A stretch of DNA of 11,352 bases from Acidobacteriota bacterium (GTDB lineage Bacteria > Acidobacteriota > Vicinamibacteria > Vicinamibacterales > Fen-181): positions 1,183 to 12,534 of the forward strand of contig PMZR01000104.1 of NCBI GenBank assembly GCA_003170135.1. Direction: 5' to 3'. Of the stretch, positions 380 through 11,352 are shown piece after piece. How positions within the stretch are numbered: the stretch's first letter is position 1; every line of letters starts with the position of its first letter. The notes under the pieces are model-generated. The model had not been told where the DNA came from and did no database searches. It saw only the letters and a list, made by a program, of their open reading frames with translations. The position numbers and the translations under genes were made by a program.

Positions 380-2746
380 TTACTTGTCCTTCTTCTTCCC
401 AATCCCGAAAAGCTTCGACCAGAAGCTGCGCTTCTTCTTGGGCTGCTGCGCGCGCCCCTGGTCCGAAGGCGGCTGCCCCGCCGTCGCCGCAGGCGACGTC
501 GCCTGCCCGGGCCCGGGCGCGGGTGCCGGTGGGACAGCCGATTCCGGCACCGGCTGCAGGCCCGAGGCCGTGCCGCCGAACAACCCGACAATGCGGTTGA
601 GGATCGACGACCCGCCGTGCAACGCGCACGTCTGGGTGGGCTCGGTGCCGCGGGCAAAGTACTCGTAGTAGGCCATCGAGCGCACGTCGATCTCGCCCGC
701 CTTGGTCACCACCGGCACGCGCTCGCAGCCGTCCACCGCGAGCTTGCCCGACAGCCGGCACACTCGGGCCGACACGACGCCCGCCGGGACCGGGTACCAC
801 TGCGGCTTGTCGCTGGCGGTCGCGGCCTTCATGAAACGCGTCCACAGCGGCACCGCGACGTCGCCCGCGTAGCCGTTCTTGAGAATCGTCCGCGGCTGGT
901 CGTAGCCCACCCAGACGCCGGCCAGGATCCGGGGCGTGAACCCGATGAACCAGGCGTCGTTGTACCCGTTGGTCGTGCCCGTCTTACCCGCGGCCGGCAG
1001 CAGGAACCCCATCGCCCGCGCCTTGTTCGCCGTGCCCGCGTCGATGACGTCGGCCAGCATCTGCTCCATCAGGAAGGCGTTCGTCTCGGAGAGCACCCGG
1101 CTCGACTCGTCGGGCACCGCGAAGAGCACCTGGCCGTCCCGATCCTCGACGCGGCGGATCATGAAGCTCTTGCGTGCGATGCCGCTGTCGGCAAACGGCA
1201 CGTAGGCGGTGGCGAGCGCGAGCAGCGTCACCTCGCCCGAGCCGAGCGCCAGCGACGGCACGTCGGGCAGCGCGCCGATGCCGGCGCTCTTCGCGTAGCC
1301 GATCGTCTTCTGGACGCCCACCTGCTGGAGCAACCGCACGGCCGCGCGGTTGCTCGACGTGCGCAGGCCGGTGCGCAGCGTCATCGAATCGGTCTCCAGG
1401 TGCTCGTCTTCGGGCATCCACTCGCCCTGCTCGGTCAGCACCGGATCGTCCAGGTGCTCGATGAGCGTGGCCGGCGTGAAGCCCGACTCGAGCGCCTCGG
1501 CGTAGACGAACGGCTTGAAGGCGGACCCGGGCTGTCGCTTCGCCTGCACCGCGCGATTGAACTCGTCCGCGTGGGACTTTGACGCAGCCGGGCGTGCGGC
1601 GAGGCTGGCCGCATCGGCCTGGCGGCCCCCGACCATCGCGCGCACGGCGCCGGTCTGCGGGTCGATGGCCACCAGGGCGGCCTGCAGCGGCTCATCCGGC
1701 TCGGCGGTCTTCGTCCGCTTCACGGCCGCGGCCCGCCTCGCGTCCAGGTCGCGCAGCGACTCCTCAACGGCGCCCTCGGCCGCGCGTTGCATGGCCGGGT
1801 CGAACGTCGTGTAGACGCGCAGCCCGCCTTCGTACACGCGCTGCCACCCGAACCGGCCGACCAGTTCGCGCCGCACCTGCTCCTTGAAGTACTGGCCAAA
1901 CCCGCTGTCGTTCGCCTCGAGTGCGTCGTGCAGAACGAGCGGCTCCTGCCGGCTCTGTTGCGAGTCTGCCCGGCTGAGCTTGTTCGTGTCGCACATCGCC
2001 TGCAGCACGACGTTGCGCCGCGCCACGGCGCGGGCCGGGCTGATCGTCGGCGCATAGGCCGAAGGCGACTTCACCAGGCCGGCGATGAGCGCCGATTCGG
2101 CCACGTCGAGATCCGATGCGTGCTTGCCGAAATAGCCGAGCGACGCGGCTTCCACGCCGTAGAGGCCGCCGCCGAAATAGATCCGGTTCAGGTACATCTC
2201 GAGGATTTGCTTTTTCGAGAACATCCTTTCCAGGCGCGCTGCCAGCAGCAGTTCGGCCACCTTGCGCCGGATCGTCTTGTCGGGGGTCAGGAAGCTCTGC
2301 CGTGCGAGCTGCTGCGTGATGGTGCTGCCGCCCTGGGCCGCTCGTTTGTGGCGGAGGTTGGCAACAACGGCGCCCGCGATCCGCGTCAGGTCGAAGCCGT
2401 GATGCTCGAAGAACCGCTGATCTTCGATGGCCACGATCGCATCGATGAGACGGGGCGACATCCGCGCGATCGGAATCTCGATCCGCTGTTCCTTGAAAAT
2501 CGTGAACACCGGGCGGTCGCCAGCGTCGTAGAGGGTGCTGGCCTGGGCCATCACCGCGGTCTGCCTGAGCGTGTCGGAACCGGGAAGTGAGGACGCGACG
2601 TTGTACGTAAATGCGACGCCCCAACCGATCGCGCAAAGGACGACGAACGCGTAGGCCGCGGCAGCGCCGACAACGAGGCGCGGATGTGCCCGGTAAACCG
2701 CGCGAACGCGGCTGAGGTTGGTGTGAAGCCGGTGAGATAAGGACAT
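380..2746 (-). CDS. mrcA: Class A penicillin-binding protein (PBP1A-type bifunctional glycosyltransferase/transpeptidase)
   Basis: ORF of 788 aa. It has an N-terminal TM segment (LVVGAAAAYAFVVLCAIGWGVAF). GT51 motifs are EDQRFFEHHG, GGSTITQQLAR and RKVAE. Transpeptidase motifs are SAFK (SxxK), SSN (SxN) and KTGTT (KTG). GC3 is high throughout. The C-terminus is a Pro/Ala-rich low-complexity tail. Confidence 0.93.
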   Translation of the reverse strand: MSLSHRLHTNLSRVRAVYRAHPRLVVGAAAAYAFVVLCAIGWGVAFTYNVASSLPGSDTLRQTAVMAQASTLYDAGDRPVFTIFKEQRIEIPIARMSPRLIDAIVAIEDQRFFEHHGFDLTRIAGAVVANLRHKRAAQGGSTITQQLARQSFLTPDKTIRRKVAELLLAARLERMFSKKQILEMYLNRIYFGGGLYGVEAASLGYFGKHASDLDVAESALIAGLVKSPSAYAPTISPARAVARRNVVLQAMCDTNKLSRADSQQSRQEPLVLHDALEANDSGFGQYFKEQVRRELVGRFGWQRVYEGGLRVYTTFDPAMQRAAEGAVEESLRDLDARRAAAVKRTKTAEPDEPLQAALVAIDPQTGAVRAMVGGRQADAASLAARPAASKSHADEFNRAVQAKRQPGSAFKPFVYAEALESGFTPATLIEHLDDPVLTEQGEWMPEDEHLETDSMTLRTGLRTSSNRAAVRLLQQVGVQKTIGYAKSAGIGALPDVPSLALGSGEVTLLALATAYVPFADSGIARKSFMIRRVEDRDGQVLFAVPDESSRVLSETNAFLMEQMLADVIDAGTANKARAMGFLLPAAGKTGTTNGYNDAWFIGFTPRILAGVWVGYDQPRTILKNGYAGDVAVPLWTRFMKAATASDKPQWYPVPAGVVSARVCRLSGKLAVDGCERVPVVTKAGEIDVRSMAYYEYFARGTEPTQTCALHGGSSILNRIVGLFGGTASGLQPVPESAVPPAPAPGPGQATSPAATAGQPPSDQGRAQQPKKKRSFWSKLFGIGKKKDK

Positions 2747-3010: not shown

Positions 3011-3358
3011 GTGTTTCGGGTCATCGCATTCGTCGCAGGGGTGGCAGCTGGGGTTGCGTTGCTCCTGTTCGTGATCGCCAGCATGTCGGTCCCAACGCCG
3101 GCTTTCGCCAAGGCGGCGGATGGCCCGCCGTCCCCGCCGCAGCAGGAATCGGGGAGAGTCTTTGCTCATCCGGACGATCTGCAGGGCATGACGTCGCTCG
3201 GCGACGAGGACGACCCGAACGATGGGTCGCAGATGGATCTCGAAGGGAACGAAGTCACGCCGGCGCTGGCGAAATACCGGTTCGACGCGCAGGGAAACAT
3301 CTACGAGACCCACGCGCCGCACACCGAGGTGCCGCACCTGGGTTCGCCGACGCTGTAA
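3011..3358 (+). CDS. Small hypothetical secreted or membrane-anchored acidic protein (115 aa from GTG 3011)
   Basis: AGGAGG at 2996-3001 lies 9 nt upstream of GTG 3011, in frame with the 2837..3358 ORF. The N-terminus (VFRVIAFVAGVAAGVALLLFVIASMSVPTPAFA/KA) looks like a Sec signal with an AxA site. The rest is acidic (DEDDPNDGSQMDLEGNE). GC3 is high. I recognise no family. Confidence 0.55.
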   Translation: MFRVIAFVAGVAAGVALLLFVIASMSVPTPAFAKAADGPPSPPQQESGRVFAHPDDLQGMTSLGDEDDPNDGSQMDLEGNEVTPALAKYRFDAQGNIYETHAPHTEVPHLGSPTL

Positions 3359-3362
3359 GAGA

Positions 3363-3502
3363 GTGCGACGTGCGAAGTGCGGTGCTTGTGCGCCGCGCAC
3401 TCCGCGCTAGCTGCCGGGCACGGCGCACCTCGCACGCACCTTGCACCCAGCAGTCAGCACCGCACCTCGCACCCCGCACTACGCACCCCGCACGCCGCAC
3501 TA
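3363..3502. repeat. Composite inverted heptamer element: GTGCGNN x3 (3363-3383), a GTGCGC-c-GCGCAC palindrome (3388-3400), then CGCACNN units (3424-3437 and a strictly 7-bp phased run of six at 3461-3502).
   Basis: CGCAC starts at 3461, 3468, 3475, 3482, 3489 and 3496, exactly 7 bp apart. GTGCG starts at 3363, 3370 and 3377. The two arrays are reverse complements of each other. The element lies between convergent genes and begins 4 nt after the stop at 3356-3358. Confidence 0.85.
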
Positions 3503-3524
3503 TTTCCCCCCGTACACACAACAG

Positions 3525-3558
3525 GCGCGAGCCGCGAATTCCGATCGCGGCAACGCGC
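3525..3558. terminator. GC-rich hairpin, a candidate bidirectional terminator between convergent genes
   Basis: The structure is GCGCG-a-GCCGCGA [attccga] TCGCGGC-aa-CGCGC, giving 12 paired bases with a 7-nt loop. On the minus strand it is followed by CTGTTGTGTGT, which is U-rich but not a clean U-tract. On the plus strand there is no T-run. Confidence 0.3.
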
Positions 3559-3575
3559 CCTGGTTGAATCCCGAC

Positions 3576-3617
3576 AGCCAAAGGCCAAAGGCCTAAGGCC
3601 AAAGGCCAAAGACCAAG
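3576..3617. repeat. Heptamer tandem array, GGCCAAA-type, 6 units
   Basis: The units are AGCCAAA GGCCAAA GGCCTAA GGCCAAA GGCCAAA GACCAAG. The array ends 7 nt from the stop codon of the gamma-subunit gene (3625-3627). Confidence 0.85.
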
Positions 3618-3624
3618 AGCCCTC

Positions 3625-4188
3625 CTACACCGCCACTCCCTTCGCCTTCAGCGCCTCCAGCCCGGCCTCGTAGCCGCGGCGGAACGCCTTCAGGTTCAGG
3701 TCATGCGTGCCCGGCGGCACCGAATCGATGACGGACTGCTCGAGCGCCTTGAGCGGCACCAACTGGCTGACCGCGCCGAAGAACCCCACCGCCACGATGT
3801 TCAGCACGATCTTGCGGCCGATCTCCTCCGCGATGCGCGTGGCCGGTACCGCGAAATGCCGGTCCGACGCGACATCGGGCCCGACCTTCACCAGCTCGGC
3901 CTCGGTCACCAGCAGGCCGCCCTTCTTCAGCCGGGGCGCGAAGCGCGCGTAGGCGTCCTGCGACAGCACGACCAGCATGTCGAGGTCCCCGACATAGGGA
4001 TAGTTGATCGGCTCGTCGGACACGATGAGTTCCGCGCTCGACGAGCTGCCGCGTGCCTCCGGGCCGAAGCTCTGGATGAGCGTAGCGTTCAGCCCCCCGT
4101 GGATTGCGGCCGCGCGGCCGATGATGATGGCGCTCAGGATGACGCCCTGCCCGCCGAAGCCGCCGATTCTGATTTGAGTCTCCGCCAT
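3625..4188 (-). CDS. korC: 2-oxoacid:ferredoxin oxidoreductase, gamma subunit
   Basis: The protein is 187 aa. The N-terminus IRIGGFGGQGVILSAIIIGRAA... and overall length are typical of OFOR gamma subunits. ATG 4188 is preceded by GGAG with a 9-nt spacer. It is the last gene of a delta-alpha-beta-gamma cluster. The symbol reflects assumed 2-oxoglutarate specificity, which is inferred only from gene order. Confidence 0.88.
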   Translation of the reverse strand: MAETQIRIGGFGGQGVILSAIIIGRAAAIHGGLNATLIQSFGPEARGSSSSAELIVSDEPINYPYVGDLDMLVVLSQDAYARFAPRLKKGGLLVTEAELVKVGPDVASDRHFAVPATRIAEEIGRKIVLNIVAVGFFGAVSQLVPLKALEQSVIDSVPPGTHDLNLKAFRRGYEAGLEALKAKGVAV

Positions 4189-4210
4189 ATGTTGATGCTC
4201 CGACTGAAAA

Positions 4211-4224
4211 GGCCTAAGGCCAAA
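4211..4224. repeat. Short heptamer array, GGCCTAA GGCCAAA (2 units)
   Basis: It has the same unit and orientation as 3576-3617. It lies in the 40-bp beta/gamma intercistronic gap, 4 nt from the beta stop codon (4229-4231). Confidence 0.6.
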
Positions 4225-4228
4225 GAAG

Positions 4229-5083
4229 CTAGGCGAGGCGCTTGTATCGATCGCCGAGCTTCTTCGACAAATGCGCGTCCATCGCTTCCTGCCACGTCTG
4301 CCGGTCGCGGTCCACGAACTTGCCGACGACGATCGGGCCGTCGATCGCGAGATCGCAGTCCTTCGTGCTCGCGCCGTTCTTGATCTGGCTGCGCTTCTTG
4401 TAGTCCTTCAGCTCGTCCAGCCCGTCGCCGCGGTGGTTGCGCCGGCCGTAGAGCGTCGGGCAGGGCGACAGGATCTCGATGAACGAGAAGCCCTTCTTGC
4501 TGATGGCCTCGCGCATCGCCTTCTTCAGCTGCGTCACGTGGTACACGGTCCAGCGCGCCACGTACACGGCGCCGCTCGACTCGGCCAGGTACGGCAGGTT
4601 GAAGGGCTGCTCGAAGTTCCCGTACGGGCTCGTCGACGCGATCGCGTCCTCGGGCGTCGTCGGGGTGACCTGGCCGCCGGTCATCCCGTAGGTCAGGTTG
4701 TTGACGCAGACGATCGTCATGTCCACGTTGCGGCGCGCCGCGTGGATGAAATGGTTGCCGCCGATGGCCGTCAGGTCGCCGTCGCCGCTGTACACCACGA
4801 CCTTCAGCTCGGGATTGGACAGCTTCAGGCCGGTCGCAAACGGGATGGCGCGGCCGTGCGTCGTGTGGAACGAATCGAGCTTCGCATAACCCGCCACGCG
4901 GCCCGTGCAGCCGATGCCCGAGACGATGGCGAGCTTGTCCAGATCCAACCCGCACTCGTCGATGGCGCGGGCGAAGCAGTTGACCGTGGTCCCGATGCCG
5001 CAGCCGGGGCACCAGATGTGCGGGATCCGATCGGTCCGAAGAAACCGTTCGACGGGGTTTTCCATGACGACAGAACCGGTCAT
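4229..5083 (-). CDS. korB: 2-oxoacid:ferredoxin oxidoreductase, beta (thiamine diphosphate-binding) subunit
   Basis: Motifs are WCPGCGIG and GIGCTGR, plus the TPP motif GDGD...NN (YSGDGDLTAIGGNHFIHAARRNVDMTIVCVNNLTYGMTGGQ). I place the start at ATG 5083, with GGAGG 7 nt upstream, giving 284 aa. The ORF-track start at 5146 adds 21 codons that read through the heptamer repeat. Confidence 0.92.
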   Translation of the reverse strand: MTGSVVMENPVERFLRTDRIPHIWCPGCGIGTTVNCFARAIDECGLDLDKLAIVSGIGCTGRVAGYAKLDSFHTTHGRAIPFATGLKLSNPELKVVVYSGDGDLTAIGGNHFIHAARRNVDMTIVCVNNLTYGMTGGQVTPTTPEDAIASTSPYGNFEQPFNLPYLAESSGAVYVARWTVYHVTQLKKAMREAISKKGFSFIEILSPCPTLYGRRNHRGDGLDELKDYKKRSQIKNGASTKDCDLAIDGPIVVGKFVDRDRQTWQEAMDAHLSKKLGDRYKRLA

Positions 5084-5105
5084 TACAATGCCTCCGCTGG
5101 CTGAA

Positions 5106-5249
5106 GTGCGAGGTGCGACGTGCGAGGTGCGAGGTGCGTCAGACACCCCGCAGCCGCTTCGCGCCTTGCACTACCGCACGCCCCACTCCGCACTGTGCAC
5201 GTCGCACATCGCACCGCACTTCGCACTCCGCACGTCGCACTCCGCACTT
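5106..5249. repeat. Composite inverted heptamer element: GTGCGNN x5 (5106-5140), a 26-nt spacer, then about 12 NGCACNN units (5167-5249)
   Basis: The first array reads GTGCGAG GTGCGAC GTGCGAG GTGCGAG GTGCGTC. After the spacer, NGCAC starts at 5167, 5175, 5182, 5189, 5196, 5203, 5210, 5215, 5222, 5229, 5236 and 5243. The element fills the 164-bp alpha/beta intercistronic gap and overlaps the alpha stop codon (5248-5250). Confidence 0.9.
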
Positions 5250-6402
5250 ATCCCAGCGCTTCCGCGATCGCATCGGCGATGGTCGCCGGGTTGTGAACGG
5301 TCCCGCCGGCGTGCGGCACCGAGATGACGCGCGTCGACCGCGCGCAGCGTTCGACTTCGCGGACCATCTGCCCCAGGTTGAGTTCGGGCACCACGAACGC
5401 CTTCACCGACGGCGCGATCGCGCGGATGCGCTCTTCGGGGAACGGCCACACCGTGCGCAGGCGAAGCAACCCGATCTTGCGGCCGCGCTTGCGCATCTGC
5501 GCGATGGCCGGCAGCACCACGCGCGACGTGATGCCGTAGGCGATGACGACCACGTCGGCGCCTTCGACGCCGTCCTCGACGACGTCGGTCAGGTCCGCCG
5601 TGTGCTTGGTGATCTTCTCGGTCAGCCGGCGCAGCAGGCGCGCCTGGCCGGGCGCGTTCATGTCCGGGTAGCCGCGCTCGTCGTGCGTCAGGCCCGTGAT
5701 GTGGAAGCGGTAGCCCGTGCCCGCCTTCGCCATATCCGGCACGCCATCCTCACCGGCCGCGTAGGGCTGGTACTCGCCCTGCGCGGCGGTCGTGTAGCGC
5801 CGGGGGTAGATCTCGATGTCGGTGGGCGCCGGGATGACCACGCGCTCCATCATGTGGCCGACGCATTCGTCCATCATCACGATCGCCGGTGAACGGTAGC
5901 GCTCGGAGAGGTTGAAGGCCTTGATGGTGAGATCGAAGCATTCCTGCGGCGAGTTGGGCGAGACGGCGATGATCTGGTAGTCGCCGTGCGAGCCCCACTT
6001 GGCCTGCATCATGTCGGCCTGCGCCGGCAGCGTCGGCAGCCCCGTGGACGGTCCGCCGCGCTGGACGTTGACGAACACGCACGGCGTCTCGGTCATGACG
6101 GCGTAGCCGAGGTGCTCCATCATCAGCGAGAAGCCGGGGCCCGAGGTCACGGTCATCGCTTTCTGACCGCCCCAGGCCGCGCCCGCGATCGCGATCGAGG
6201 ACGCCAGTTCGTCCTCCATCTGGATGAAGACGCCGCCCACTTCGGGAAAGCGCCACGCGATGCGTTCGACGACTTCGGTCGAAGGCGTGATCGGGTAGCC
6301 GGCGACGAAGCGGCAGCCGGCGGCCAGCGCTCCTTCGCAACACGCGTGATCGCCGTCGATGAAATGCGCGCCCGTCAGGACGCCAGCCGGATCGGCATGC
6401 AT
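5248..6402 (-). CDS. korA: 2-oxoacid:ferredoxin oxidoreductase, alpha subunit
   Basis: The protein is 384 aa. The N-terminal signature is GDHACCEGALAAGCRFVAGYPITPSTEV. The length matches alpha subunits of four-subunit enzymes. ATG 6402 is preceded by GAGG with a 7-nt spacer. Confidence 0.92.
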   Translation of the reverse strand: MHADPAGVLTGAHFIDGDHACCEGALAAGCRFVAGYPITPSTEVVERIAWRFPEVGGVFIQMEDELASSIAIAGAAWGGQKAMTVTSGPGFSLMMEHLGYAVMTETPCVFVNVQRGGPSTGLPTLPAQADMMQAKWGSHGDYQIIAVSPNSPQECFDLTIKAFNLSERYRSPAIVMMDECVGHMMERVVIPAPTDIEIYPRRYTTAAQGEYQPYAAGEDGVPDMAKAGTGYRFHITGLTHDERGYPDMNAPGQARLLRRLTEKITKHTADLTDVVEDGVEGADVVVIAYGITSRVVLPAIAQMRKRGRKIGLLRLRTVWPFPEERIRAIAPSVKAFVVPELNLGQMVREVERCARSTRVISVPHAGGTVHNPATIADAIAEALG

Positions 6403-6429
6403 GTAGTACCTCGCAGGACGGGAAGACTC

Positions 6430-6485
6430 GGCTCTCGGCCTTTGGCCTTGGGCCTTTGGCTTTCGGGCTTAGGCCTAAGGCCTTC
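6430..6485. repeat. Heptamer tandem array, GGCCTTT-type, about 8 units. It is inverted relative to 3576-3617 and 4211-4224.
   Basis: The units are GGCTCTC GGCCTTT GGCCTTG GGCCTTT GGCTTTC GGGCTTA GGCCTAA GGCCTTC. The array ends 1 nt from the delta stop codon (6487-6489) and fills most of the 84-bp delta/alpha gap. Confidence 0.85.
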
Positions 6486-6486
6486 T

Positions 6487-6720
6487 TTACAGCTTGTAAC
6501 CGAAGATCGCGAAATCCGGGCAGTACATCCCGCACAGATCGCAGCCGGAGCACGCCTCCGGCTTGAGGACCTCGGGCGGGTGGTAGCCCTTGCTCGTGAA
6601 CCCGGACGACAGGGCCAGAACGTCGGTCGGACAGAACTCGACGCAGAAGCCGCAGCCTTTGCAGCGTTCGGCCCGGACGACCACCTGACCGCGGACGCGC
6701 GGACGACTTGTGTCAGCCAT
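6487..6720 (-). CDS. korD: 2-oxoacid:ferredoxin oxidoreductase, delta subunit (2x[4Fe-4S] ferredoxin)
   Basis: There are two CxxCxxCxxxCP motifs (CKGCGFCVEFCP and CSGCDLCGMYCP). I place the start at ATG 6720 (MADTSRPRVRG...), giving 77 aa. The 30 extra codons of the ORF-track version (to 6810) run through palindromic non-coding sequence. Confidence 0.88.
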   Translation of the reverse strand: MADTSRPRVRGQVVVRAERCKGCGFCVEFCPTDVLALSSGFTSKGYHPPEVLKPEACSGCDLCGMYCPDFAIFGYKL

Positions 6721-6733
6721 AACAATTTCCGGA

Positions 6734-6746
6734 ACCTGGACCAGGT
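6734..6746. promoter_or_regulatory. 13-bp palindrome ACCTGG-A-CCAGGT, 14-26 nt upstream of the korD start, flanked by an A7/T7 tract
   Basis: The 6-1-6 inverted repeat was read directly. T7 at 6751-6757 corresponds to A7 on the coding strand. It could be an operator or a 5'-UTR element. No promoter hexamers could be assigned confidently. Confidence 0.3.
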
Positions 6747-6805
6747 CAGTTTTTTTGAGGCAACGCGATGTGGCGCGGACCGCACGGCTGCCACACCGCA
6801 CAGCT

Positions 6806-6835
6806 GCCACATGTGGCGCAGGACTTCAGTCCTGC
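6806..6835. promoter_or_regulatory. Two abutting palindromes upstream of the kor operon: GCCACATGTGGC (6806-6817) and GCAGGACT-tc-AGTCCTGC (6818-6835)
   Basis: The first is a perfect 12-bp palindrome and the second an 8-2-8 palindrome, both read directly. Nearby direct repeats are ATGTGGCGC (6768-6776 and 6811-6819) and GCTGCCACA (6787-6795 and 6803-6811). The region looks REP-like or operator-like. Confidence 0.35.
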
Positions 6836-7063
6836 GACCCTCGGTTGCGCTCTACTACGCAAGCGATGTTCCGCAAAGCGACGGGGGGAAGAAACCCGAG
6901 GGATTCCTGGGGTTTACGCCGTGCGGCCTGCCGGTTGCGAAAACTCCGCGCGCTCGAGCTGCCGGGTTGCCGGCGCCGGGGCCAAACGCGGACTGCGCAT
7001 TTTACTACAGCTGGAGGTTCCGTCGCGAAACGGCACCAGCGCACCATGACGCCGCCCGTGCCG

Positions 7064-7095
7064 CCCACCCACTGCCCACTACCCACTGCCCACTG
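7064..7095. repeat. Heptamer tandem array, CCCACTG-type, about 4.5 units
   Basis: The sequence reads CCCACCC ACTGCCC ACTACCC ACTGCCC ACTG. It abuts the stop codon (7096-7098) of the aminotransferase gene. On the minus (mRNA) strand it reads CAGTGGG repeats. Confidence 0.8.
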
Positions 7096-8415
7096 TCACG
7101 TCATCCGCATGTACCGGCCGACGGTCCCGACCAAGCGTTCCACCTCCGCCTGCAGGTTGTAGAAGTGCGGCGCCACGCGCAGGCCGCCGCGGTCCGCGCC
7201 GCCGCGCGCCATCACGGCAATCCGTTCCTTTTCGTACAGCGTCGTTGCCAGCGTGCTGGCGTTCAGCCCGCCCGGCTGGAACGAGATGATCGCGGCCGAC
7301 CGCGTCGGATCGGCGTCGGTCCACACCTTCACGCCCGGGATCTTCTTCAGGCCGTCGATGAGCGCCTGCGCGAGCGCACAGCTTCGCCGCTCGACCGCGG
7401 GCCGTCCGATCGCGTTCTGCAGCTTCAGCGCCTCGCCGAACGCCATCACCGCCGCATCGTCTCGCTGGCCCAGCCCCTCGAAGGTGGTGCTGGCGCCCGT
7501 CGCGCCCGCGTAGAGGCTGATGATGCTGGGCGACAGCTTCGGCAGCGCGTCCTTTCTTATATAGAGGACGCCCACCTCGCGCGGTCCGCACGGCCACTTG
7601 TGCGCGCTGCCGGTGAAGAAGTCCGGCTGCATGTCGGCGAGATCGATGTCGAGGACGCCGAACGACTGGGCACCGTCCACGATCGACAAGGCGCCGCGTT
7701 CGCGGGCCAGGCGGCACAGTTCCTTCGCGGGGAACAGGTCGCCCACCGACGCGGTGACGTGCGAGAAGGCGACGACCTTCGTGCGCGCGGTCATCGCTTT
7801 GGCGAACGCATCGACGTAGTAGTCGGTGCCCGGGTGCGGGTTCACCTGCTCGACGACGCGGACGATGAATCCGAAGCGTTTCGCCTTCTGCTGCCACGCG
7901 CCGAGGAGGCTCGGGTGATTGTCCGAGACCACGACGACTTCGTCGCCGGCCTTCAGGTCCAGGCCGCTCGAGACGATGTTGTTGCCTTCGCTCGTGTTGC
8001 GGGTGATGACGATTTCTTCGGGGGTGGCGTGCAGGAAGTCGGCGAGGAGCTTGCGCGTGGTCTCGCGGCCCTCCCCCACGCGACGACGGTTGGGGAGGGA
8101 CGGGTCGCGATCCACCCAGCGCGTCTCCGCCTCGAGCACCTCGAGCACCGGCTTCGACGCGGGACACAGGTTGGCCGCGTTCAGGAGCGCCAAATCGGAA
8201 GGCACCAGGAACTTCTCGCGCACGGTCCGCCAGAACGCCTCGTCCTGGACCGCGCCCTGCAGATCCCGGTAGGGCGTGCCTTCAGGCCCGCCGTGGCGGG
8301 ACGCTTCGGGGTCGCGAGGCCCGCGGGGCCCCAGCGCCGCGCCGAGCGGCGCCAGTATTCCCGCGCCGCCCACCATCTTTCCGAACTCACGCCTGCTGAT
8401 GCCCTTGCCGGCCAT
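7096..8415 (-). CDS. Class V aminotransferase-fold PLP-dependent enzyme (isopenicillin-N-epimerase/cysteine-desulfurase-like) with a twin-arginine (Tat) signal peptide
   Basis: SAHKW contains the PLP-lysine motif. The N-terminal block FWRTVREKFLVPSDLALLNAANLCPASKPV is typical of this family. The Tat motif is SRREFGK followed by a hydrophobic stretch (MVGGAGILAPLGAALG). I place the start at ATG 8415, with AGGAGG 5 nt upstream, rather than 8433. This gives 439 aa. Confidence 0.85.
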   Translation of the reverse strand: MAGKGISRREFGKMVGGAGILAPLGAALGPRGPRDPEASRHGGPEGTPYRDLQGAVQDEAFWRTVREKFLVPSDLALLNAANLCPASKPVLEVLEAETRWVDRDPSLPNRRRVGEGRETTRKLLADFLHATPEEIVITRNTSEGNNIVSSGLDLKAGDEVVVVSDNHPSLLGAWQQKAKRFGFIVRVVEQVNPHPGTDYYVDAFAKAMTARTKVVAFSHVTASVGDLFPAKELCRLARERGALSIVDGAQSFGVLDIDLADMQPDFFTGSAHKWPCGPREVGVLYIRKDALPKLSPSIISLYAGATGASTTFEGLGQRDDAAVMAFGEALKLQNAIGRPAVERRSCALAQALIDGLKKIPGVKVWTDADPTRSAAIISFQPGGLNASTLATTLYEKERIAVMARGGADRGGLRVAPHFYNLQAEVERLVGTVGRYMRMT

Positions 8416-8495
8416 GACATCCTCCTCGATCATCTCCGCCTGTCGTCGGAGACAGAGCGCGTCCGCGCCTGCGCATCATCGATCTCGGGCCCCCG

Positions 8496-8579
8496 GGACT
8501 CCGGACTCCGTGGTTCGACAAGCTCACCACGCCCTGAGCCAGTCGAAGGGCGGACTCCGGACTCCGGACCCCGGATTAT
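8496..8579. repeat. GGACTCC heptamer arrays (8496-8509 and 8552-8579) flanking a palindromic hairpin element (8514-8547)
   Basis: Layout: GGACTCC GGACTCC - gtgg - TTCGAC aa GCTCA [ccacgccc] TGAGC ca GTCGAA - gggc - GGACTCC GGACTCC GGACCCC GGATTAT. It lies in the divergent intergenic region between the aminotransferase and MNT genes. Confidence 0.8.
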
Positions 8580-8608
8580 ATCCCCGGGCGCCAGGCCCGC
8601 CGGCCGGG

Positions 8609-8614
8609 TAAAAT
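8609..8614 (+). promoter_or_regulatory. Candidate -10 hexamer TAAAAT immediately upstream of the MNT start. The transcript may be leaderless or short-leader.
   Basis: An AT-rich hexamer stands out in GC-rich DNA. It lies 6 nt before ATG 8621, and there is no convincing SD upstream of either GTG 8615 or ATG 8621. I found no good -35. A second AT-rich hexamer (TTATAT, 8576-8581) lies inside the last degenerate heptamer unit. Confidence 0.2.
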
Positions 8615-8620
8615 GTGCTC

Positions 8621-8974
8621 ATGTCGGATGGTTCTGCGACAAGGCGCCTGCCTCCGCTCGTCCAGGCAACGCTCGACGCTTTCGTCTCGGGCGTACGAGA
8701 GCGGTTCGGATCGCGGGTGACGACGATCACGCTCTTCGGCTCGTACGCCCGCGGACAGGCACATGAGGAATCGGACATCGACTGCCTGATTCTGCTCGAC
8801 TGGCTGGATGCGGCCGACGATCGGGTGATCACCGACATGGCGGCCGATCTTATCTGGGAAATCGGCGGCGCCGTCATCTCGCCGCTGGTCATGTCGGTGG
8901 CCGAGTTCGAACGATGGAAGGCAACGGAACGCCGCGCGCCGATCGAGATCGCGCGGGATGGGATTCCCCTGTGA
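8621..8974 (+). CDS. Minimal nucleotidyltransferase (MNT, Pol-beta-like NTase domain), the antitoxin-type partner of HEPN
   Basis: The signature is LFGSYARGQAHEESDIDCLILLD (GS-x2-RG ... DxD). The protein is small (117 aa from ATG 8621; GTG 8615 is an alternative start). Its stop overlaps the downstream HEPN start. Confidence 0.85.
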   Translation: MSDGSATRRLPPLVQATLDAFVSGVRERFGSRVTTITLFGSYARGQAHEESDIDCLILLDWLDAADDRVITDMAADLIWEIGGAVISPLVMSVAEFERWKATERRAPIEIARDGIPL

Positions 8975-9372
8975 CCGACGACAACAAACGCTCGGCTGTC
9001 GCCTCGGAACTTGCCCGGGCTGATGAATCGCTACGCGCTGCCGAACTGCTGGTCGGCGCGGGCCTTCTGCACGACGCCGAAAGCCGGCTGTACTACGCCG
9101 TCTACCACGCCGCGGTGGCGTTGCTCCTGACTGAGGATCTGCAGCCGCGCTCGCATGCCGGGGTCGCCAGTCTGTTCGGATTGCATTTCGTGAAGACCGG
9201 GCGCATCGATGCCGAGGACGGACGGCTGCTGCTCCGGATGCAAAAATACCGAATCGAGGCCGATTATGGGCGTGACTTCGTGCTCACGGAACCGGCACTG
9301 AACGAAGACCTGGTGGCGTGCCGAGGGTTCATCGACCGCGTGCGCCGCATCATTGCATCGATAGGTTACTGA
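8971..9372 (+). CDS. HEPN domain protein, the toxin-type partner of MNT
   Basis: GTG 8971 overlaps the MNT stop codon in a GTGA 4-nt overlap, giving 133 aa. The protein is helical, with the features LYYAVYHAAVALL, PRSHAGVASLF and RIEADYG that I associate with the classic HEPN family found next to MNT genes. The ORF-track start at 8914 would overlap MNT by 61 nt. Confidence 0.8.
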   Translation: MTDDNKRSAVASELARADESLRAAELLVGAGLLHDAESRLYYAVYHAAVALLLTEDLQPRSHAGVASLFGLHFVKTGRIDAEDGRLLLRMQKYRIEADYGRDFVLTEPALNEDLVACRGFIDRVRRIIASIGY

Positions 9373-9380
9373 CTTCCCGT

Positions 9381-9626
9381 TCACGACCGGCGGCGACGTT
9401 CCTCCAGCGTCCGGTCAAGCGCCTCGAGATCCGGATCCGGTCCGTTCGGCGGCCGTCCAACGACGGTTTCCACGCGCCGTCCGCGATTCGCCCCCCAGCC
9501 GCGCCATCCGCACGTTGAACAACGGAACGGCACTTTCCGCGTCAGCCTGTTGCGCAGCCGCCCCAGCGCCCCGCTCACCTTTGAACGGTGAACCCGGTTC
9601 GATTTGCACTTCGGACAGACATCCAC
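9381..9626 (-). CDS. Small zinc-ribbon protein of unknown function (81 aa)
   Basis: There are two CxxC pairs (CPKC ... 29 residues ... CSTC), in a pattern like 'CPxCxS.RVHRS...RC.xCGWR'. The tail is basic then acidic. AAGGGGG and GGTGG lie upstream of ATG 9626. GC3 is moderate. It is the best of two overlapping ORFs here. Confidence 0.55.
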   Translation of the reverse strand: MDVCPKCKSNRVHRSKVSGALGRLRNRLTRKVPFRCSTCGWRGWGANRGRRVETVVGRPPNGPDPDLEALDRTLEERRRRS

Positions 9627-9695
9627 CGTTCACCCCCTTAGCTCGCTCCCCTGGTTCCTTGTCCCCCACGCCAAGGACCAATGTCGAATGGCCCG

Positions 9696-9744
9696 CAACG
9701 AACGACTAACGACCGGCGACCAACGACCAACGACCAACGACCAT
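9696..9744. repeat. Heptamer tandem array, CGACCAA-type, about 7 units
   Basis: The units are CAACGAA CGACTAA CGACCGG CGACCAA CGACCAA CGACCAA CGACCAT. The array touches the rmlA stop codon (9744-9746). On the minus (mRNA) strand it reads TTGGTCG repeats. Confidence 0.85.
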
Positions 9745-10646
9745 CAACAGATTTCCCCGCCTTCCCTGGCTGCCTCCCTCAGCAGCAGCATCAGGTAATC
9801 GCCGTACTCCGTCTTCGCCAGGTCCTGCGCCAGGCGTTCGAGCTGCGCGGCGTCGATGAACCCCTGGCGGAAGGCGATTTCCTCGAGACAGGCGATCTTC
9901 AGACCCTGGCGTCGTTCGACGGTTTCGATGAACTGGCTGGCTTCAAGTAATGATGCGTGTGTGCCCGTATCGAGCCAGGCATATCCACGACCGATGACGT
10001 CCACGACCAGCCGGCCCTGCTCGAGGTAACACCGGTTCAGGTCGGTGATCTCGAGTTCCCCTCGCTCTGAACGCGTCAGCCCGGCCGCCAGGTCCGGCGC
10101 AAAGCGATCGTAGAAGTAGAGGCCGGTGACCGCGTAGTTGGAACGCGGTGCGGTGGGCTTCTCCTCGATCGATTCCACCCGACCGTTCCGGTTGAAGGTC
10201 ACCACGCCGTAGCGCTGCGGATCGCGCACGTGGTAGGCGAATATCGTCGCGCCCGTCGTGCGAGCGGTAGCGGTCTGAAGCAGGTCGCCGAGACGGCCGC
10301 CATAAAAGATGTTGTCGCCAAGGACGAGCGCGGACGGCTGCCCGTCCAGGAACGCGCGACCGATGATGAGCGCCTCGGCCAGGCCTCCCGGGGACGGCTG
10401 AATCGCGTAGCTGATCTCCAGTCCCCACTGGCGCCCGTCGCCAAGCAGCTGCTCGAACCGCGGAGTGTCCACGGGCGTCGAGATGACCAGGACCTCGCGA
10501 ATGCCCGCCAGCATCAATGTGCTGAGCGGGTAATAGATCATCGGCTTGTCATACACCGGCAGGAGTTGCTTGGAAACAGCCCGGGTGACCGGGTACAGAC
10601 GCGTCCCCGCGCCTCCTGCCAGCACGATACCTTTGCGACGGTCCAT
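9744..10646 (-). CDS. rfbA: Glucose-1-phosphate thymidylyltransferase
   Basis: The protein is 300 aa. The N-terminus [54 protein letters not shown] is the canonical RmlA/RfbA signature, and similarity is full length. AAGG lies upstream of ATG 10646. Confidence 0.93.
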
Positions 10647-10770: not shown

Positions 10771-11319
10771 TCAGCGGGCCCCCGAGAGGATGTAATCGGC
10801 CGCCGCCCCGAGCGACCCCACGGTGGCATCGGGAACGTCAGCGTGGTGCTCGCGGTAGCCGCCGTCCACCAGCACCGTTCGGCACCCCGCCCGCTGCCCC
10901 GCCTCCACGTCGCGCCACCTGTCGCCCACCATGAAGCTGCGTGACAGATCGACCCCCGCTTCGCGCGCGGCATCGACCAGCATCCCCGCTTTCGGCTTCC
11001 GGCACCCGCAGCCGTCCGCATCGTCGTGGTAACACACGCGAAGATCGTCGATCGGAAGCAGCGAGCGAAGGAAGGCGTGCATCGCCTCGACGACCTCGCG
11101 GGACTGGAGGCCCCGCGCAACGTCCGGCTGGTTCGTCACGACGATGAGCACGAAGCCCGCCCGCTGCAAACGCGCCAGCGCGTCGCCCACGCCGGGCAGG
11201 ATCTCGAGCGTGTCGAGGCCGGAGGGCGGATAGGGCCGGCCCTCGCGGACGATCGCGCGCACGATCACGCCGTCGCGATCGAGGAACACCGCACGTCGGG
11301 TTGCGTTCATTGAATGCAT
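10771..11319 (-). CDS. gmhB: HAD-IIIA family phosphatase, D-glycero-D-manno-heptose 1,7-bisphosphate phosphatase (GmhB)-like
   Basis: Motifs are FLDRDGVI (DxDG), VVTNQ, the Zn-type C-x-H ... C-x-C RKP motif (CYHDDADGCGCRKPKAGML) and VGDRWRDVEAGQRAG. ATG 11310 is an alternative start. The histidinol-phosphatase-like alternative cannot be excluded from sequence alone. Confidence 0.8.
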   Translation of the reverse strand: MHSMNATRRAVFLDRDGVIVRAIVREGRPYPPSGLDTLEILPGVGDALARLQRAGFVLIVVTNQPDVARGLQSREVVEAMHAFLRSLLPIDDLRVCYHDDADGCGCRKPKAGMLVDAAREAGVDLSRSFMVGDRWRDVEAGQRAGCRTVLVDGGYREHHADVPDATVGSLGAAADYILSGAR

Positions 11320-11352
11320 CTCGTACTCGAGTCGCTATCAGGGCCCATCGGC

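What the first reader, a model, noticed from the sequence alone, without database searches (positions are those of the whole stretch)
3363..9744. Heptanucleotide tandem arrays fill almost every intergenic gap, most starting 0-7 nt from a stop codon
At least ten arrays share an exact 7-bp period but use five unrelated units.
- GTGCGNN at 3363-3383, starting 4 nt after the stop of the 3011-3358 CDS.
- CGCACNN at 3424-3502.
- GGCCAAA at 3576-3617, ending 7 nt from the korC stop.
- GGCCTAA/GGCCAAA at 4211-4224, 4 nt from the korB stop.
- GTGCGNN at 5106-5140.
- NGCACNN at 5167-5249, overlapping the korA stop.
- GGCCTTT at 6430-6485, 1 nt from the korD stop.
- CCCACTG at 7064-7095, abutting the aminotransferase stop.
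- GGACTCC at 8496-8509 and 8552-8579.
- CGACCAA at 9696-9744, touching the rmlA stop.

Seven is not a multiple of three, and none of the arrays lies in a credible CDS. Read on the mRNA strand of the upstream gene, the array next to the stop is G-rich and C-poor in four of the seven stop-proximal cases: GTGCG (twice), CAGTGGG and TTGGTCG. The three GGCC-type arrays have equal G and C.

The closest precedent I know is the heptameric STRR repeats of heterocystous cyanobacteria. This DNA is far too GC-rich to be one of those. The shared period with unrelated sequence suggests a common generating or selecting mechanism: slippage with a 7-nt register, a periodic RNA/DNA-binding factor, or 3'-end/intercistronic RNA structure. 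I cannot tell which.
Basis: partly seen in the sequence, partly recalled or inferred. Interest (0 to 1): 0.72.

Follow-up and report, generated by a model that had tools for sequence, protein, structure and literature searches.

The report
Seven-base repeat arrays after stop codons
The gaps between genes in this soil acidobacterium are packed with tandem 7-base repeats that start right at stop codons and often fold into long hairpins; this is a dense new example of a repeat class already described in Xanthomonas, Geobacter and cyanobacteria, whose function is still unknown.

Summary
All ten arrays sit at the stated coordinates. The window's intergenic DNA holds 8 strict period-7 arrays and none at periods 4-6 or 8-12; shuffles give about 0.02. 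More than ten independent assemblies carry the arrays without a single indel.

In 30.9 kb of the source contig, 16 period-7 arrays are all intergenic, against one each for periods 6 and 8. Arrays abut stop codons far more often than random placement allows (7 stop ends against 1.26 expected, 0 of 20,000 trials).

Near relatives keep arrays at the same sites with different copy numbers, for example 8 against 4 units. Some carry a different array at the same junction. More distant relatives have tight, array-free kor junctions.

Many arrays are inverted pairs or quasi-palindromic units that fold into long hairpins. An orthologous junction in Terriglobales shows compensatory changes between the two arms.

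This is the known class of heptanucleotide simple-sequence repeats. Stop-codon proximity and inverted pairs were already reported for Xanthomonas. I read them as slippage-resized arrays retained as self-folding 3'-end or intercistronic stem-loops. The cause of the 7-base period remains unexplained. I file this as a new member of a known kind, of moderate interest.

The parts
3363..3383 (.). GTGCGNN array of 3 units, starting 4 nt after the stop of the small CDS 3011-3358. It is the 5' arm of a hairpin; 3362-3386 pairs with 3456-3480.
   Evidence: The fold of 3350-3630 gives -120 kcal/mol, z = -5.35.
3424..3502 (.). CGCACNN array of about 11 units, some irregular. It is the inverted partner of 3363-3383 and lies between the convergent small CDS and korC.
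3576..3617 (-). TTTGGCC array (GGCCAAA on the + strand) of about 6 units, 7 nt after the korC stop (3625). The palindromic GGCC core gives only small local hairpins.
   Evidence: Fold z = -0.46.
4211..4224 (-). Two GGCC-type units (GGCCTAA GGCCAAA) in the 40-nt korB-korC junction, 4 nt after the korB stop and 22 nt before the korC start.
5104..5140 (-). CUCGCAC units x5 on the mRNA (GTGCGAG on the + strand). This is the 3' arm of the korA-korB hairpin and ends 22 nt before the korB start, leaving the GGAGG ribosome-binding site free.
5167..5249 (-). NNGUGCG units, about 12 on the mRNA. The first five (5215-5249) begin inside the korA UAA stop codon and form the 5' arm, pairing with 5104-5138 at 30 of 35 positions. 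Variant units sit in mirror order in the two arms.
   Evidence: (-95.6 kcal/mol, z = -3.95, 0 of 200 shuffles).
6430..6485 (-). AGGCCWW units, about 8 on the mRNA, starting 1-3 nt after the korD stop and ending 24-27 nt before the korA start. The first units (AGGCCUU) are complementary to later ones (AAGGCC), but the resulting hairpin is weak.
   Evidence: Fold -32.1 kcal/mol, z = -1.79.
7064..7095 (-). CAGUGGG x4-5 on the mRNA, abutting the aminotransferase stop codon. It fits a G3N4 G-quadruplex motif. A relative at 93% identity has 8 units at the same site.
   Evidence: no hairpin, z = -0.41; MFE -16.1 to -27.6 kcal/mol when G-quadruplexes are allowed.
8496..8579 (.). Composite palindromic element in the divergent NTase|aminotransferase gap. 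Quasi-palindromic GGACTCC units (8496-8509 and 8552-8579) flank a central hairpin (8514-8547) and pair with each other.
   Evidence: z = -3.7 and -4.07 on the two strands. A second copy at 94% identity lies elsewhere on the contig.
9696..9744 (-). UGGUCGU x6-7 on the mRNA, starting at the base after the rmlA UGA stop. It has no partner arm and no excess structure. The 93% relative has about 12 units.
   Evidence: (z = 0.18).
3625..6720 (-). The korD-korA-korB-korC operon (2-oxoacid:ferredoxin oxidoreductase), whose junctions host the arrays. Junctions measure 84, 164 and 40 nt here. In relatives at about 80% KorA identity, korA-korB and korB-korC are 12 nt or less and korD-korA is about 40-60 nt; no period-7 array lies at these junctions in those loci.
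   Evidence: Pfam; relatives L001, L096, L097, L099.

Best explanation
These are heptanucleotide simple-sequence repeats, the long-SSR class reported in many bacteria, in a soil Acidobacteriota genome that is probably Vicinamibacterales-like.

Shown:
- The arrays are real.
- They are period-7 specific and strictly non-coding.
- They sit directly 3' of stop codons and stop 13-27 nt short of the next start codon, which leaves the ribosome-binding site free.
- They gain and lose whole units between close relatives.
- They appear, disappear or are replaced at gene junctions over short evolutionary distances.

Inferred:
- Arrays are created and resized by replication slippage in a 7-nt register. 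Arm-to-arm copying, by template switching within a hairpin, would keep inverted arms complementary.
- Arrays persist mainly where they are harmless or useful, which is just after a stop codon.
- Most are self-folding. They are inverted pairs (GTGCGNN/CGCACNN), quasi-palindromic units (GGACTCC, GGCCWWW), or in one case a G-quadruplex motif (CAGTGGG).
- In the transcript they would therefore act like REP-type 3'-end or intercistronic stem-loops. The base of the hairpin brings the stop codon and the next ribosome-binding site back together despite an insertion of up to 164 nt. The stem could also protect the upstream cistron from 3' exonucleases.

Why the preferred unit is 7 nt is not explained here. 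The only published proposal known to me is a slippage bias linked to the DNA polymerase footprint.
For: Period specificity:
- The window has 8 period-7 arrays and none at other periods; shuffles give about 0.02.
- The 30.9-kb stretch has 16 at period 7 against 1 each at periods 6 and 8.
- In 2.06 Mb of mostly acidobacterial relatives, TRF finds 59 arrays at period 7 against 6 at period 6 and 3 at period 8.

Unit-wise change:
- L180 (93% nucleotide identity) has the same arrays abutting the same stops, but with 8 against 4 CAGTGGG units, about 12 against 6.5 TGGTCGT units, and more GGAGTCC units.

Turnover:
- L181 (98% identical in korA) has a 59-nt korA-korB spacer with three TTGGCCT-type units in place of the 164-nt GTGCG/CGCAC hairpin.
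- In relatives at about 80% KorA identity the korA-korB and korB-korC gaps are 12 nt or less, and no period-7 array lies at any kor junction.
- The DegT-SDF, hyp187-DegT and SDF-epimerase junctions carry different arrays, simple hairpins or nothing in relatives at 88-92% identity.

Placement:
- Stop adjacency is 7 observed against 1.26 expected, with 0 of 20,000 random placements reaching it.

Structure:
- The korA-korB spacer folds at -95.6 kcal/mol with z = -3.95. Its 35-nt arms start in the stop codon and carry variant units in mirror order.
- The 3350-3630 region folds with z = -5.35.
- The GGACTCC element folds with z = -3.7 and -4.07.
- In relatives, 10 of 15 neighbouring array pairs are inverted complements.
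- An orthologous Terriglobales junction keeps an inverted heptamer pair while the unit changes between AGGTCTT, AGTTCTC and AGCTCTC, with matching changes in the other arm. There, 90% of cells are paired, there are 14 double-change cells, 0 of 500 shuffles reach that, and slid controls pair at 51% or less.

Precedent:
- The Xanthomonas heptamers show the same stop proximity and the same inverted pairs (PMC4692102).
Against: - Three stop-abutting arrays (TGGTCGT, CAGTGGG, TTTGGCC) show no structure beyond shuffles, with z between 0.18 and -0.46. The hairpin reading therefore does not cover everything that shares the period.
- The arrays are not conserved in relatives at about 80% identity. Any function is dispensable or lineage-specific.
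- Complementary arms can be maintained by mutation alone, through quasipalindrome template switching, without selection.
- No copy-number variation is seen among the more than 10 assemblies of this population.
- The GTGCGNN family has a conserved 5-nt core with two nearly free positions. Simple whole-unit slippage does not predict that.
- Stop adjacency was not significant in the Terriglobales-dominated set of relatives, with 4 observed against 1.8 expected (P about 0.10) on crude gene calls.
- There are no expression data of any kind.
Confidence: 0.55

Rival explanations
1. Neutral by-product. The arrays are functionless slippage products. They accumulate just after stop codons only because that is the one stretch of a compact intergenic gap with no promoter, operator or ribosome-binding-site constraint. 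Hairpin-prone units are over-represented because hairpins promote slippage and template switching.
For: - Arrays are absent from the kor junctions of relatives at about 80% identity.
- Whole arrays are replaced between 98%-identical strains.
- Content differs at the same junctions in relatives at 88-92% identity.
- Several arrays have no structure.
- The units are unrelated to each other.
Against: - In long gaps of 186-375 nt, arrays start within -2 to 8 nt of the stop rather than anywhere in the free space.
- The mirror order of variant units in the arms and the compensatory unit changes at a junction retained across eight Terriglobales genomes suggest that the pairing is maintained.
- Arrays end at a consistent 13-27 nt before the next start codon.
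Confidence: 0.25
2. Mobile palindromic elements. The arrays, or the hairpins built from them, are REP-, MITE- or RPE-like elements that are spread between junctions, for example by a RAYT-type Y1 transposase or by recombination, and are not generated in place.
For: - The GGACTCC-flanked 67-bp element occurs twice at 94% identity, and one copy is in frame inside a clamp-loader gene.
- The same unit families (GTGCG, GGCC-W3, GGACTYC, CAGTTGA/GTCGACA) recur at different junctions in this genome and in relatives L181, L184 and L186.
- A whole array is replaced at korA-korB.
- Relative L184 encodes a Y1_Tnp protein next to tandem REP-like palindromes.
Against: - No transposase lies in the 40 kb examined here.
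- I saw no target-site duplications or conserved element ends for most arrays.
- Copy number changes by single units at fixed sites.
- The REP-like repeats beside the Y1_Tnp gene in L184 are palindromes of about 20 nt within roughly 95-nt units, not heptamers.
- Mobility does not explain why unrelated units share the period of 7.
Confidence: 0.12
3. Heptad binding sites. The arrays are cooperative binding platforms for a protein that reads one 7-nt unit per subunit. On RNA this could be a cold-shock or OB-fold type protein. On DNA it could be a ribbon-helix-helix repressor, like the omega protein on the heptad operators of plasmid pSM19035.
For: - The GTGCGNN and GGCCWWW families have conserved cores with free positions, which is the pattern expected of recognition sites.
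- CspB binding to heptamer repeats is discussed in PMC4679880.
- Omega heptads occur in direct and inverted orientation (from my own knowledge).
Against: - At least eight unrelated units in 40 kb would need many factors, or a reader of the period alone.
- Arrays sit 3' of genes and mostly not in promoter regions.
- Units turn over quickly between relatives.
- No candidate binding-protein gene is linked to the arrays in the 40 kb.
Confidence: 0.06

Closest known systems
Heptanucleotide long simple-sequence repeats of bacteria (Mrazek et al. 2007, as summarised in PMC4692102 and PMC4679880)
   Same: Tandem 7-nt units lie in intergenic DNA. Period 7 is favoured over neighbouring periods, several different units occur in one genome, and length varies between relatives. 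Slippage is the proposed origin.
   Different: The local density here is very high: about 16 strict arrays in 31 kb, covering 12.5% of the window's intergenic bases. Arrays also occupy junctions inside an operon that are tight in relatives. I did not find Acidobacteriota mentioned in the searchable literature on this class.
GGGAATC and GGGGAYT heptamer repeats of Xanthomonas and Nostoc (Rehm et al. 2015, PMC4692102)
   Same: The Xanthomonas host is also high in GC. [quoted passage not shown] There are many inverted pairs able to form stem-loops, and length varies between species. The CAGTGGG array here is a G3N4 quadruplex motif on the sense strand.
   Different: In Xanthomonas one G-rich unit dominates and G-quadruplex formation is the proposed property. 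Here most units (GTGCGNN, GGCCWWW, GGACTCC, TGGTCGT) have no G-tracts, and pairing is the dominant property instead.
REP/BIME extragenic palindromes of Enterobacteria and Pseudomonas
   Same: Both are imperfect palindromes located just after stop codons and between cistrons, forming stable RNA stem-loops. They are lineage-specific and absent from orthologous sites in relatives.
   Different: REPs are single palindromes of 20-40 nt from one sequence family, mobilised by RAYT transposases. Here the stems are built from tandem 7-nt units of several families, and no RAYT lies in the 40 kb examined (one is present in relative L184).
STRR heptamers of heterocystous cyanobacteria, and TAACTGA repeats of Beggiatoaceae, Cyanobacteria and Bacteroidetes (PMC4679880)
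   Same: Both are tandem intergenic heptamers with genome-specific units. TTGGTCG here differs by one base from STRR2 TTGGTCA as I recall it. The Terriglobales unit GAACTGA differs by one base from TAACTGA and, like it, lies directly upstream of start codons.
   Different: The phylum, base composition and units differ. TAACTGA arrays are described mainly upstream of start codons, whereas the arrays in this window abut stop codons.
Tandem heptanucleotide elements of Geobacter metallireducens (GGACCGG x4 at 49 sites; MTYCTGA x5, an additional-file figure shows them looping from one strand to the other; PMC2700814)
   Same: These are GC-rich heptamers in short arrays at many sites. At least some sites are drawn switching strands, which suggests paired, opposite-strand arrays. 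GGACCGG resembles the GGACTCC/CCGGACT unit here.
   Different: The Geobacter elements are fixed four- or five-unit families annotated as putative regulator sites or RNA elements, and some are intragenic. No stop-codon rule was reported in the passages I read.

Membership tests
Heptanucleotide long SSRs (bacterial) | Head-to-tail copies of a 7-nt unit, at least 3 units, far beyond chance | tested here: met
   TRF. There are 8 strict arrays against 0.02 in shuffles.
Heptanucleotide long SSRs (bacterial) | Period 7 over-represented relative to periods 6 and 8, and confined to non-coding DNA | tested here: met
   16 against 1 and 1 in 30.9 kb, all intergenic. By TRF, 59 against 6 and 3 in 2.06 Mb of relatives; by my own detector on the high-GC subset, 63 against 12 and 4 intergenic arrays.
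Heptanucleotide long SSRs (bacterial) | Copy number changes by whole units between related genomes | tested here: met
   L180 against the window: 8 against 4 units and about 12 against 6.5 units at the same sites. No variation was seen within the sampled population.
G-quadruplex-forming heptamers (Xanthomonas/Nostoc type) | A G3 or longer tract in every unit, at least 4 units, on the sense strand near a stop codon | tested here: inconclusive
   Met by CAGTGGG at 7064-7095 only. Not met by the other nine arrays, which lack G-tracts.
Cyanobacterial STRR | The specific units (CCCCART, TTGGTCA, CAACAGT, as I recall them) in heterocystous cyanobacteria | tested here: not met
   The units differ. 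The nearest genomes are Acidobacteriota and Vicinamibacterales, and GC content is 67%.
REP/BIME elements | Extragenic imperfect palindrome forming a stable stem-loop, placed after stops or between cistrons | tested here: met
   for the GTGCG/CGCAC pairs and the GGACTCC element. Not met for TGGTCGT, CAGTGGG and TTTGGCC.
REP/BIME elements | One conserved palindrome family in high copy number, with a cognate RAYT (Y1) transposase | tested here: inconclusive
   Several unit families are present instead of one. No Y1 gene lies in the 40 kb read. A Y1_Tnp gene with REP-like tandem palindromes exists in relative L184. The whole genome was not available.
Intrinsic (Rho-independent) terminators | GC-rich stem-loop followed by a U-tract | tested here: not met
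   The consensus scan gives 3 sites against 6.7 expected. Only one overlaps an array, and that one lies on the non-coding strand. No array hairpin has a T-run after it.
Known RNA families (Rfam 15) | A match to a curated covariance model | tested here: not met
   The only hit is a sub-threshold miRNA model, 26 bits against a gathering score of 80.
Heptad operator arrays bound by ribbon-helix-helix repressors (omega of pSM19035) | 7-bp units in promoter regions, bound one dimer per heptad by a linked repressor | not testable with these tools
   Position argues against membership, because most arrays are 3' of genes. Binding cannot be tested in silico.

The most novel reading that the evidence does not exclude
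Heptamer-built hairpins may be a distinct, evolvable kind of self-folding spacer that Acidobacteria, and perhaps many other phyla, insert between a stop codon and the next ribosome-binding site. A dedicated 7-nt-register process would extend both arms together. This could be hairpin-templated slippage, or a factor that reads heptads and is tied to translation termination. The junction would then keep a stem-loop while its sequence is replaced wholesale, giving tunable expression of cistrons within operons.
Probability: 0.15. Interest if true: 0.65.

Novelty: new member of a known kind. Interest (0 to 1): 0.42.

Why it matters
Heptanucleotide repeats are reported as the commonest long simple-sequence repeats in bacteria. 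Nobody yet knows why seven bases is favoured or what the arrays do.

This lineage offers an unusually dense natural experiment. Arrays sit inside an essential-looking operon whose junctions are tight in relatives. They start at the stop codon. Their arms keep complementarity while units are swapped.

Relatives at 88-98% identity carry more units, different units or no array at the same junctions. Together this makes three questions directly testable with RNA-seq or Term-seq, structure probing and array deletions:
- slippage origin against mobility;
- RNA-hairpin function against neutrality;
- the link to translation termination.

For genome annotation there are two practical points. These arrays inflate intergenic length, and they can be read through by gene callers: in L184 a called CDS ends at a stop codon inside an array.

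Tried and rejected
- Assembly artefact: rejected. The sequence is identical in more than 10 independent assemblies.
- Copy-number polymorphism within the population: looked for and not found. The differences in L093 and L095 are confined to the contig-end stretch inside korA; no array in the overlap differs.
- Hidden coding function: rejected. All arrays lie outside Pfam-supported CDSs, and the sense-strand units examined (TGGTCGT, CAGTGGG, GTGCGGA) contain no stop codons, so the abutting stops are genuine gene ends.
- Known RNA families: none found.
- Canonical terminators and sigma-70 promoters: not associated with the arrays.
- STRR membership: rejected on units and host.
- G-rich, C-poor mRNA-strand rule: not general, at 4 positive, 4 neutral and 2 negative by my tally. 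It is also confounded, because nearly all genes lie on one strand.
- G-quadruplex as the common property: only one array qualifies.
- Stop adjacency in the Terriglobales-dominated set of relatives: a trend only, P about 0.10, using a crude gene caller based on third-position GC content.
- Excess of G-U over A-C in the Terriglobales alignment as a test for RNA-level selection: 14 against 9 by my count, which is not decisive.
- Closer relatives through the two large contig scans: none nearer than about 80% KorA identity. Near relatives came instead from the 90% protein clusters and from a homologue search.
- Literature: one search for the STRR unit strings was uninformative. The Mrazek 2007 paper is not held and is cited only through PMC4692102 and PMC4679880. 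No paper linking Acidobacteria with intergenic heptamer repeats was found.

Full report
**What is in the window.** The window is 67% GC. Pfam supports these genes:
- a class A penicillin-binding protein, 380-2746 (-);
- a small CDS with no Pfam match, 3011-3358 (+);
- korC 3625-4188, korB 4229-5083, korA 5248-6402 and a ferredoxin-type korD 6487-6720, all on the - strand;
- a class-V aminotransferase, 7096-8415 (-);
- a nucleotidyltransferase/HEPN pair, 8621-9372 (+);
- rmlA, 9744-10646 (-);
- a HAD phosphatase, 10771-11310 (-).

The closest reference genome is an uncultured Acidobacteriota MAG, with KorA 80% identical. A flanking transporter has 86-92% relatives, one of which is named Vicinamibacterales.

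**Checking the observation.**
- Self-identity at lag 7 is 0.364 in intergenic DNA against 0.263 in coding DNA.
- With a strict score the intergenic segments hold 8 period-7 arrays (290 of 2314 bp) and none at periods 4-6 or 8-12. Dinucleotide shuffles average 0.02.
- The same 11.35 kb recurs at 99.98-100% identity, with no indels, in more than ten independent JGI, ENA and Logan assemblies. The few differing contigs differ only in the contig-end stretch inside korA. The arrays are therefore not assembly artefacts, and they are not visibly polymorphic in this population.

**Beyond the window.** I merged loci from the 302-kb source contig into a 30.9-kb stretch, later extended to about 40 kb.
- There are 16 strict period-7 arrays, all intergenic, against one each at periods 6 and 8.
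- A relaxed list has 23 arrays.
- Ten arrays start between -2 and +9 nt from a stop codon: rmlA 0, aminotransferase 0, korD 3, korA -1, korB 3, korC 8, the small CDS 4, and three genes outside the window.
- Restricting to the 11 gaps with at least 60 nt of array-free space, 7 stop ends have an array within 9 nt. Random placement gives 1.26, and 0 of 20,000 trials reach 7.
- In co-directional junctions the arrays end 13-27 nt before the next start, leaving the Shine-Dalgarno sequence free.
Across the 30.9 kb the figure is 15 of 28.

**Anatomy.** GTGCGNN and CGCACNN are one unit in two orientations, and they form hairpins.
- In the korA-korB spacer the mRNA reads UAA-GUGCG... A 35-nt arm that starts inside the stop codon pairs with a 35-nt CGCAC arm that ends 22 nt before the korB start. 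Thirty of the 35 positions are complementary, and the variant units (AAGUGCG, ACGUGCG) sit in mirror order in the two arms.
- That fold is -95.6 kcal/mol with z = -3.95.
- The convergent gap between the small CDS and korC folds with z = -5.35.
- GGACTCC is quasi-palindromic (TCCGGA plus one base). Its two direct arrays pair with each other around a central hairpin, with z = -3.7 and -4.07.
- GGCCWWW has a palindromic core and gives only weak structure, with z = -1.8 and -0.5.
- TGGTCGT and CAGTGGG show no excess pairing. CAGTGGG x4-5 is, however, a G3N4 quadruplex motif on the sense strand.
- In the GTGCGNN family the five core positions carry 1.3-1.75 bits and positions 6 and 7 carry 0.59 and 0.04 bits. 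Simple whole-unit slippage does not predict this, and it remains unexplained.
- No Rfam family matches, and no array hairpin is followed by a T-run.

**Evolution.** In relatives at about 80% KorA identity the korA-korB and korB-korC gaps are 12 nt or less. No period-7 array lies at any kor junction in those loci, against junctions of 164, 40 and 84 nt here. Nearer relatives came from the 90% protein clusters.
- L180 (93% nucleotide identity) keeps the arrays at the same stops but with 8 against 4 CAGTGGG units, about 12 against 6.5 TGGTCGT units and extra GGAGTCC units.
- L181 (98% identical in korA) has a 59-nt korA-korB spacer with three TTGGCCT-type units in place of the GTGCG/CGCAC hairpin.
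- L182 is identical apart from a 45-nt deletion in the penicillin-binding protein gene.

Relatives at 88-92% identity, reached through the transporter gene, show the same dynamics.
- L184 and L186 each have 7 strict period-7 arrays. L185 has none and L187 has one.
- The DegT-SDF junction holds 186 nt of arrays here, CCCAAAG x4 in L184, a G-rich/C-rich imperfect hairpin in L186, and short simple hairpins in L185 and L187.
- The SDF-epimerase junction is 0-7 nt in all relatives but 116 nt here, with inverted GTTGACAGT/ACTGTCAAC arrays.
- Unit families recur across these genomes at different junctions: GGCC-W3, GGACTYC and CAGTTGA/GTCGACA.

**A wider pattern.** In 2.06 Mb of loci from relatives, mostly Acidobacteriota, TRF finds 59 arrays at period 7 against 6 and 3 at periods 6 and 8. 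With my own detector on the high-GC subset, intergenic arrays number 63 against 12 and 4. Ten of 15 neighbouring array pairs are inverted complements.

One orthologous Terriglobales junction lies between a sigma-54 response-regulator gene and a conserved 185-aa gene.
- In eight genomes the 77-93-nt gap is filled by an inverted pair of about four heptamers.
- The unit changes between AGGTCTT, AGTTCTC and AGCTCTC, with matching changes in the other arm.
- On the alignment 90% of cells are paired and there are 14 double-change cells. None of 500 shuffles reaches that, and slid controls pair at 51% or less.

Arms therefore co-evolve, either by selection for pairing or by arm-to-arm template switching. 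Stop adjacency in large gaps was only a trend in this set (P about 0.10).

**Comparison with what is known.**
- Heptanucleotide repeats are reported as the most abundant long-SSR class in most bacterial genomes, with a polymerase-slippage proposal (Mrazek et al. 2007, as summarised in PMC4692102 and PMC4679880).
[quoted passage not shown] About 70 of them are inverted pairs, and length varies between species.
- Geobacter metallireducens has GGACCGG and MTYCTGA heptamer families.
- Beggiatoaceae, cyanobacteria and Bacteroidetes have TAACTGA arrays.

The period, the stop proximity and the inverted pairing are therefore all precedented. Four things are added here:
- the host phylum, since I found no paper on Acidobacteria;
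- the density;
- the invasion of tight operon junctions;
- the evidence for mirrored and compensatory arms.

**Conclusion.** The arrays are heptanucleotide SSRs that are resized in whole units and turned over rapidly. They are retained directly after stop codons, mostly in self-folding form.

I consider a REP-like role as 3'-end or intercistronic stem-loops the best-supported mechanism. In that role the hairpin keeps the stop codon and the next ribosome-binding site together, and may stabilise the upstream cistron. My overall confidence is 0.55: high for the class and its dynamics, moderate to low for function.

The rivals are neutral tolerated slippage (0.25), REP/MITE-like mobility (0.12) and heptad-binding proteins (0.06). 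The reason for the 7-nt period remains open.

Noticed in passing
window 8496-8562; second copy at L081 17250-17316: The GGACTCC-flanked 67-bp palindromic element has a second copy at 94% identity inside the DNA polymerase III clamp-loader (delta'/gamma-like) gene. It is in frame and adds about 21 residues in the loop before the CxxC zinc module, by comparison with E. coli gamma (1njf). This resembles the Rickettsia palindromic elements that insert into coding genes.
   Followed up: partly
L184 5600-6531: A relative at 92% identity encodes a 158-aa Y1_Tnp (IS200/RAYT-like) protein. It is preceded by about five tandem units of roughly 95 nt made of REP-like palindromes (CCCCGAGCTGAAGCTCGGGG). 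The window's genome has only sequence remnants at the same place, in the hyp307|SmpB gap at L183 6034-6710.
   Followed up: partly
window 6768-6835: Upstream of korD there is a 16-bp direct repeat (ACCGCACAGCTGCCAC x2, 6779-6811) and a perfect 12-nt palindrome (GCCACATGTGGC, 6806-6817), with ATGTGGCGC repeated at both ends. A GGACTTCAGTCC mini-hairpin follows. This may be an operator for the kor operon.
   Followed up: no
window about 846-890 (inside the PBP1A gene): One assembly (L182) differs from the window only by a 45-nt in-frame deletion inside the penicillin-binding protein gene.
   Followed up: no
L184 9950-10000: In this relative the DegT reading frame runs into a CCCAAAG array and ends at a TAA created by a variant unit (CCTAAAG). 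Gene callers extended both flanking CDSs across the array.
   Followed up: partly
window 5248-5262 against L181 1585-1600: KorA's last 2-3 codons differ between the window (…GCGCTGGGATAA) and the 98% relative (…GCGCTGCGCTGA), exactly where the downstream array has been replaced. The exchange therefore reached into the end of the gene.
   Followed up: no
L117 11638-11722 and orthologous sites in L022, L029, L055, L019, L012, L128, L130: At the Terriglobales junction, the arm next to the start codon is (GAGAACT)n or (GAGAGCT)n and ends 4-8 nt before the ATG. No separate Shine-Dalgarno sequence is visible. The unit GAACTGA is one base from the TAACTGA repeats reported directly upstream of start codons in Beggiatoaceae.
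   Followed up: partly
window 10783-11352 and 112-314, against L081 448-1017 and 208-412: The HAD phosphatase gene and a 200-nt stretch near the left end of the window have diverged duplicates (91% and 87% identity) a few kb away on the same contig.
   Followed up: no
L180 2036-2301: In the 93% relative the HEPN gene of the nucleotidyltransferase/HEPN pair has decayed to fragments of 30 and 54 aa, while the nucleotidyltransferase gene is intact.
   Followed up: no
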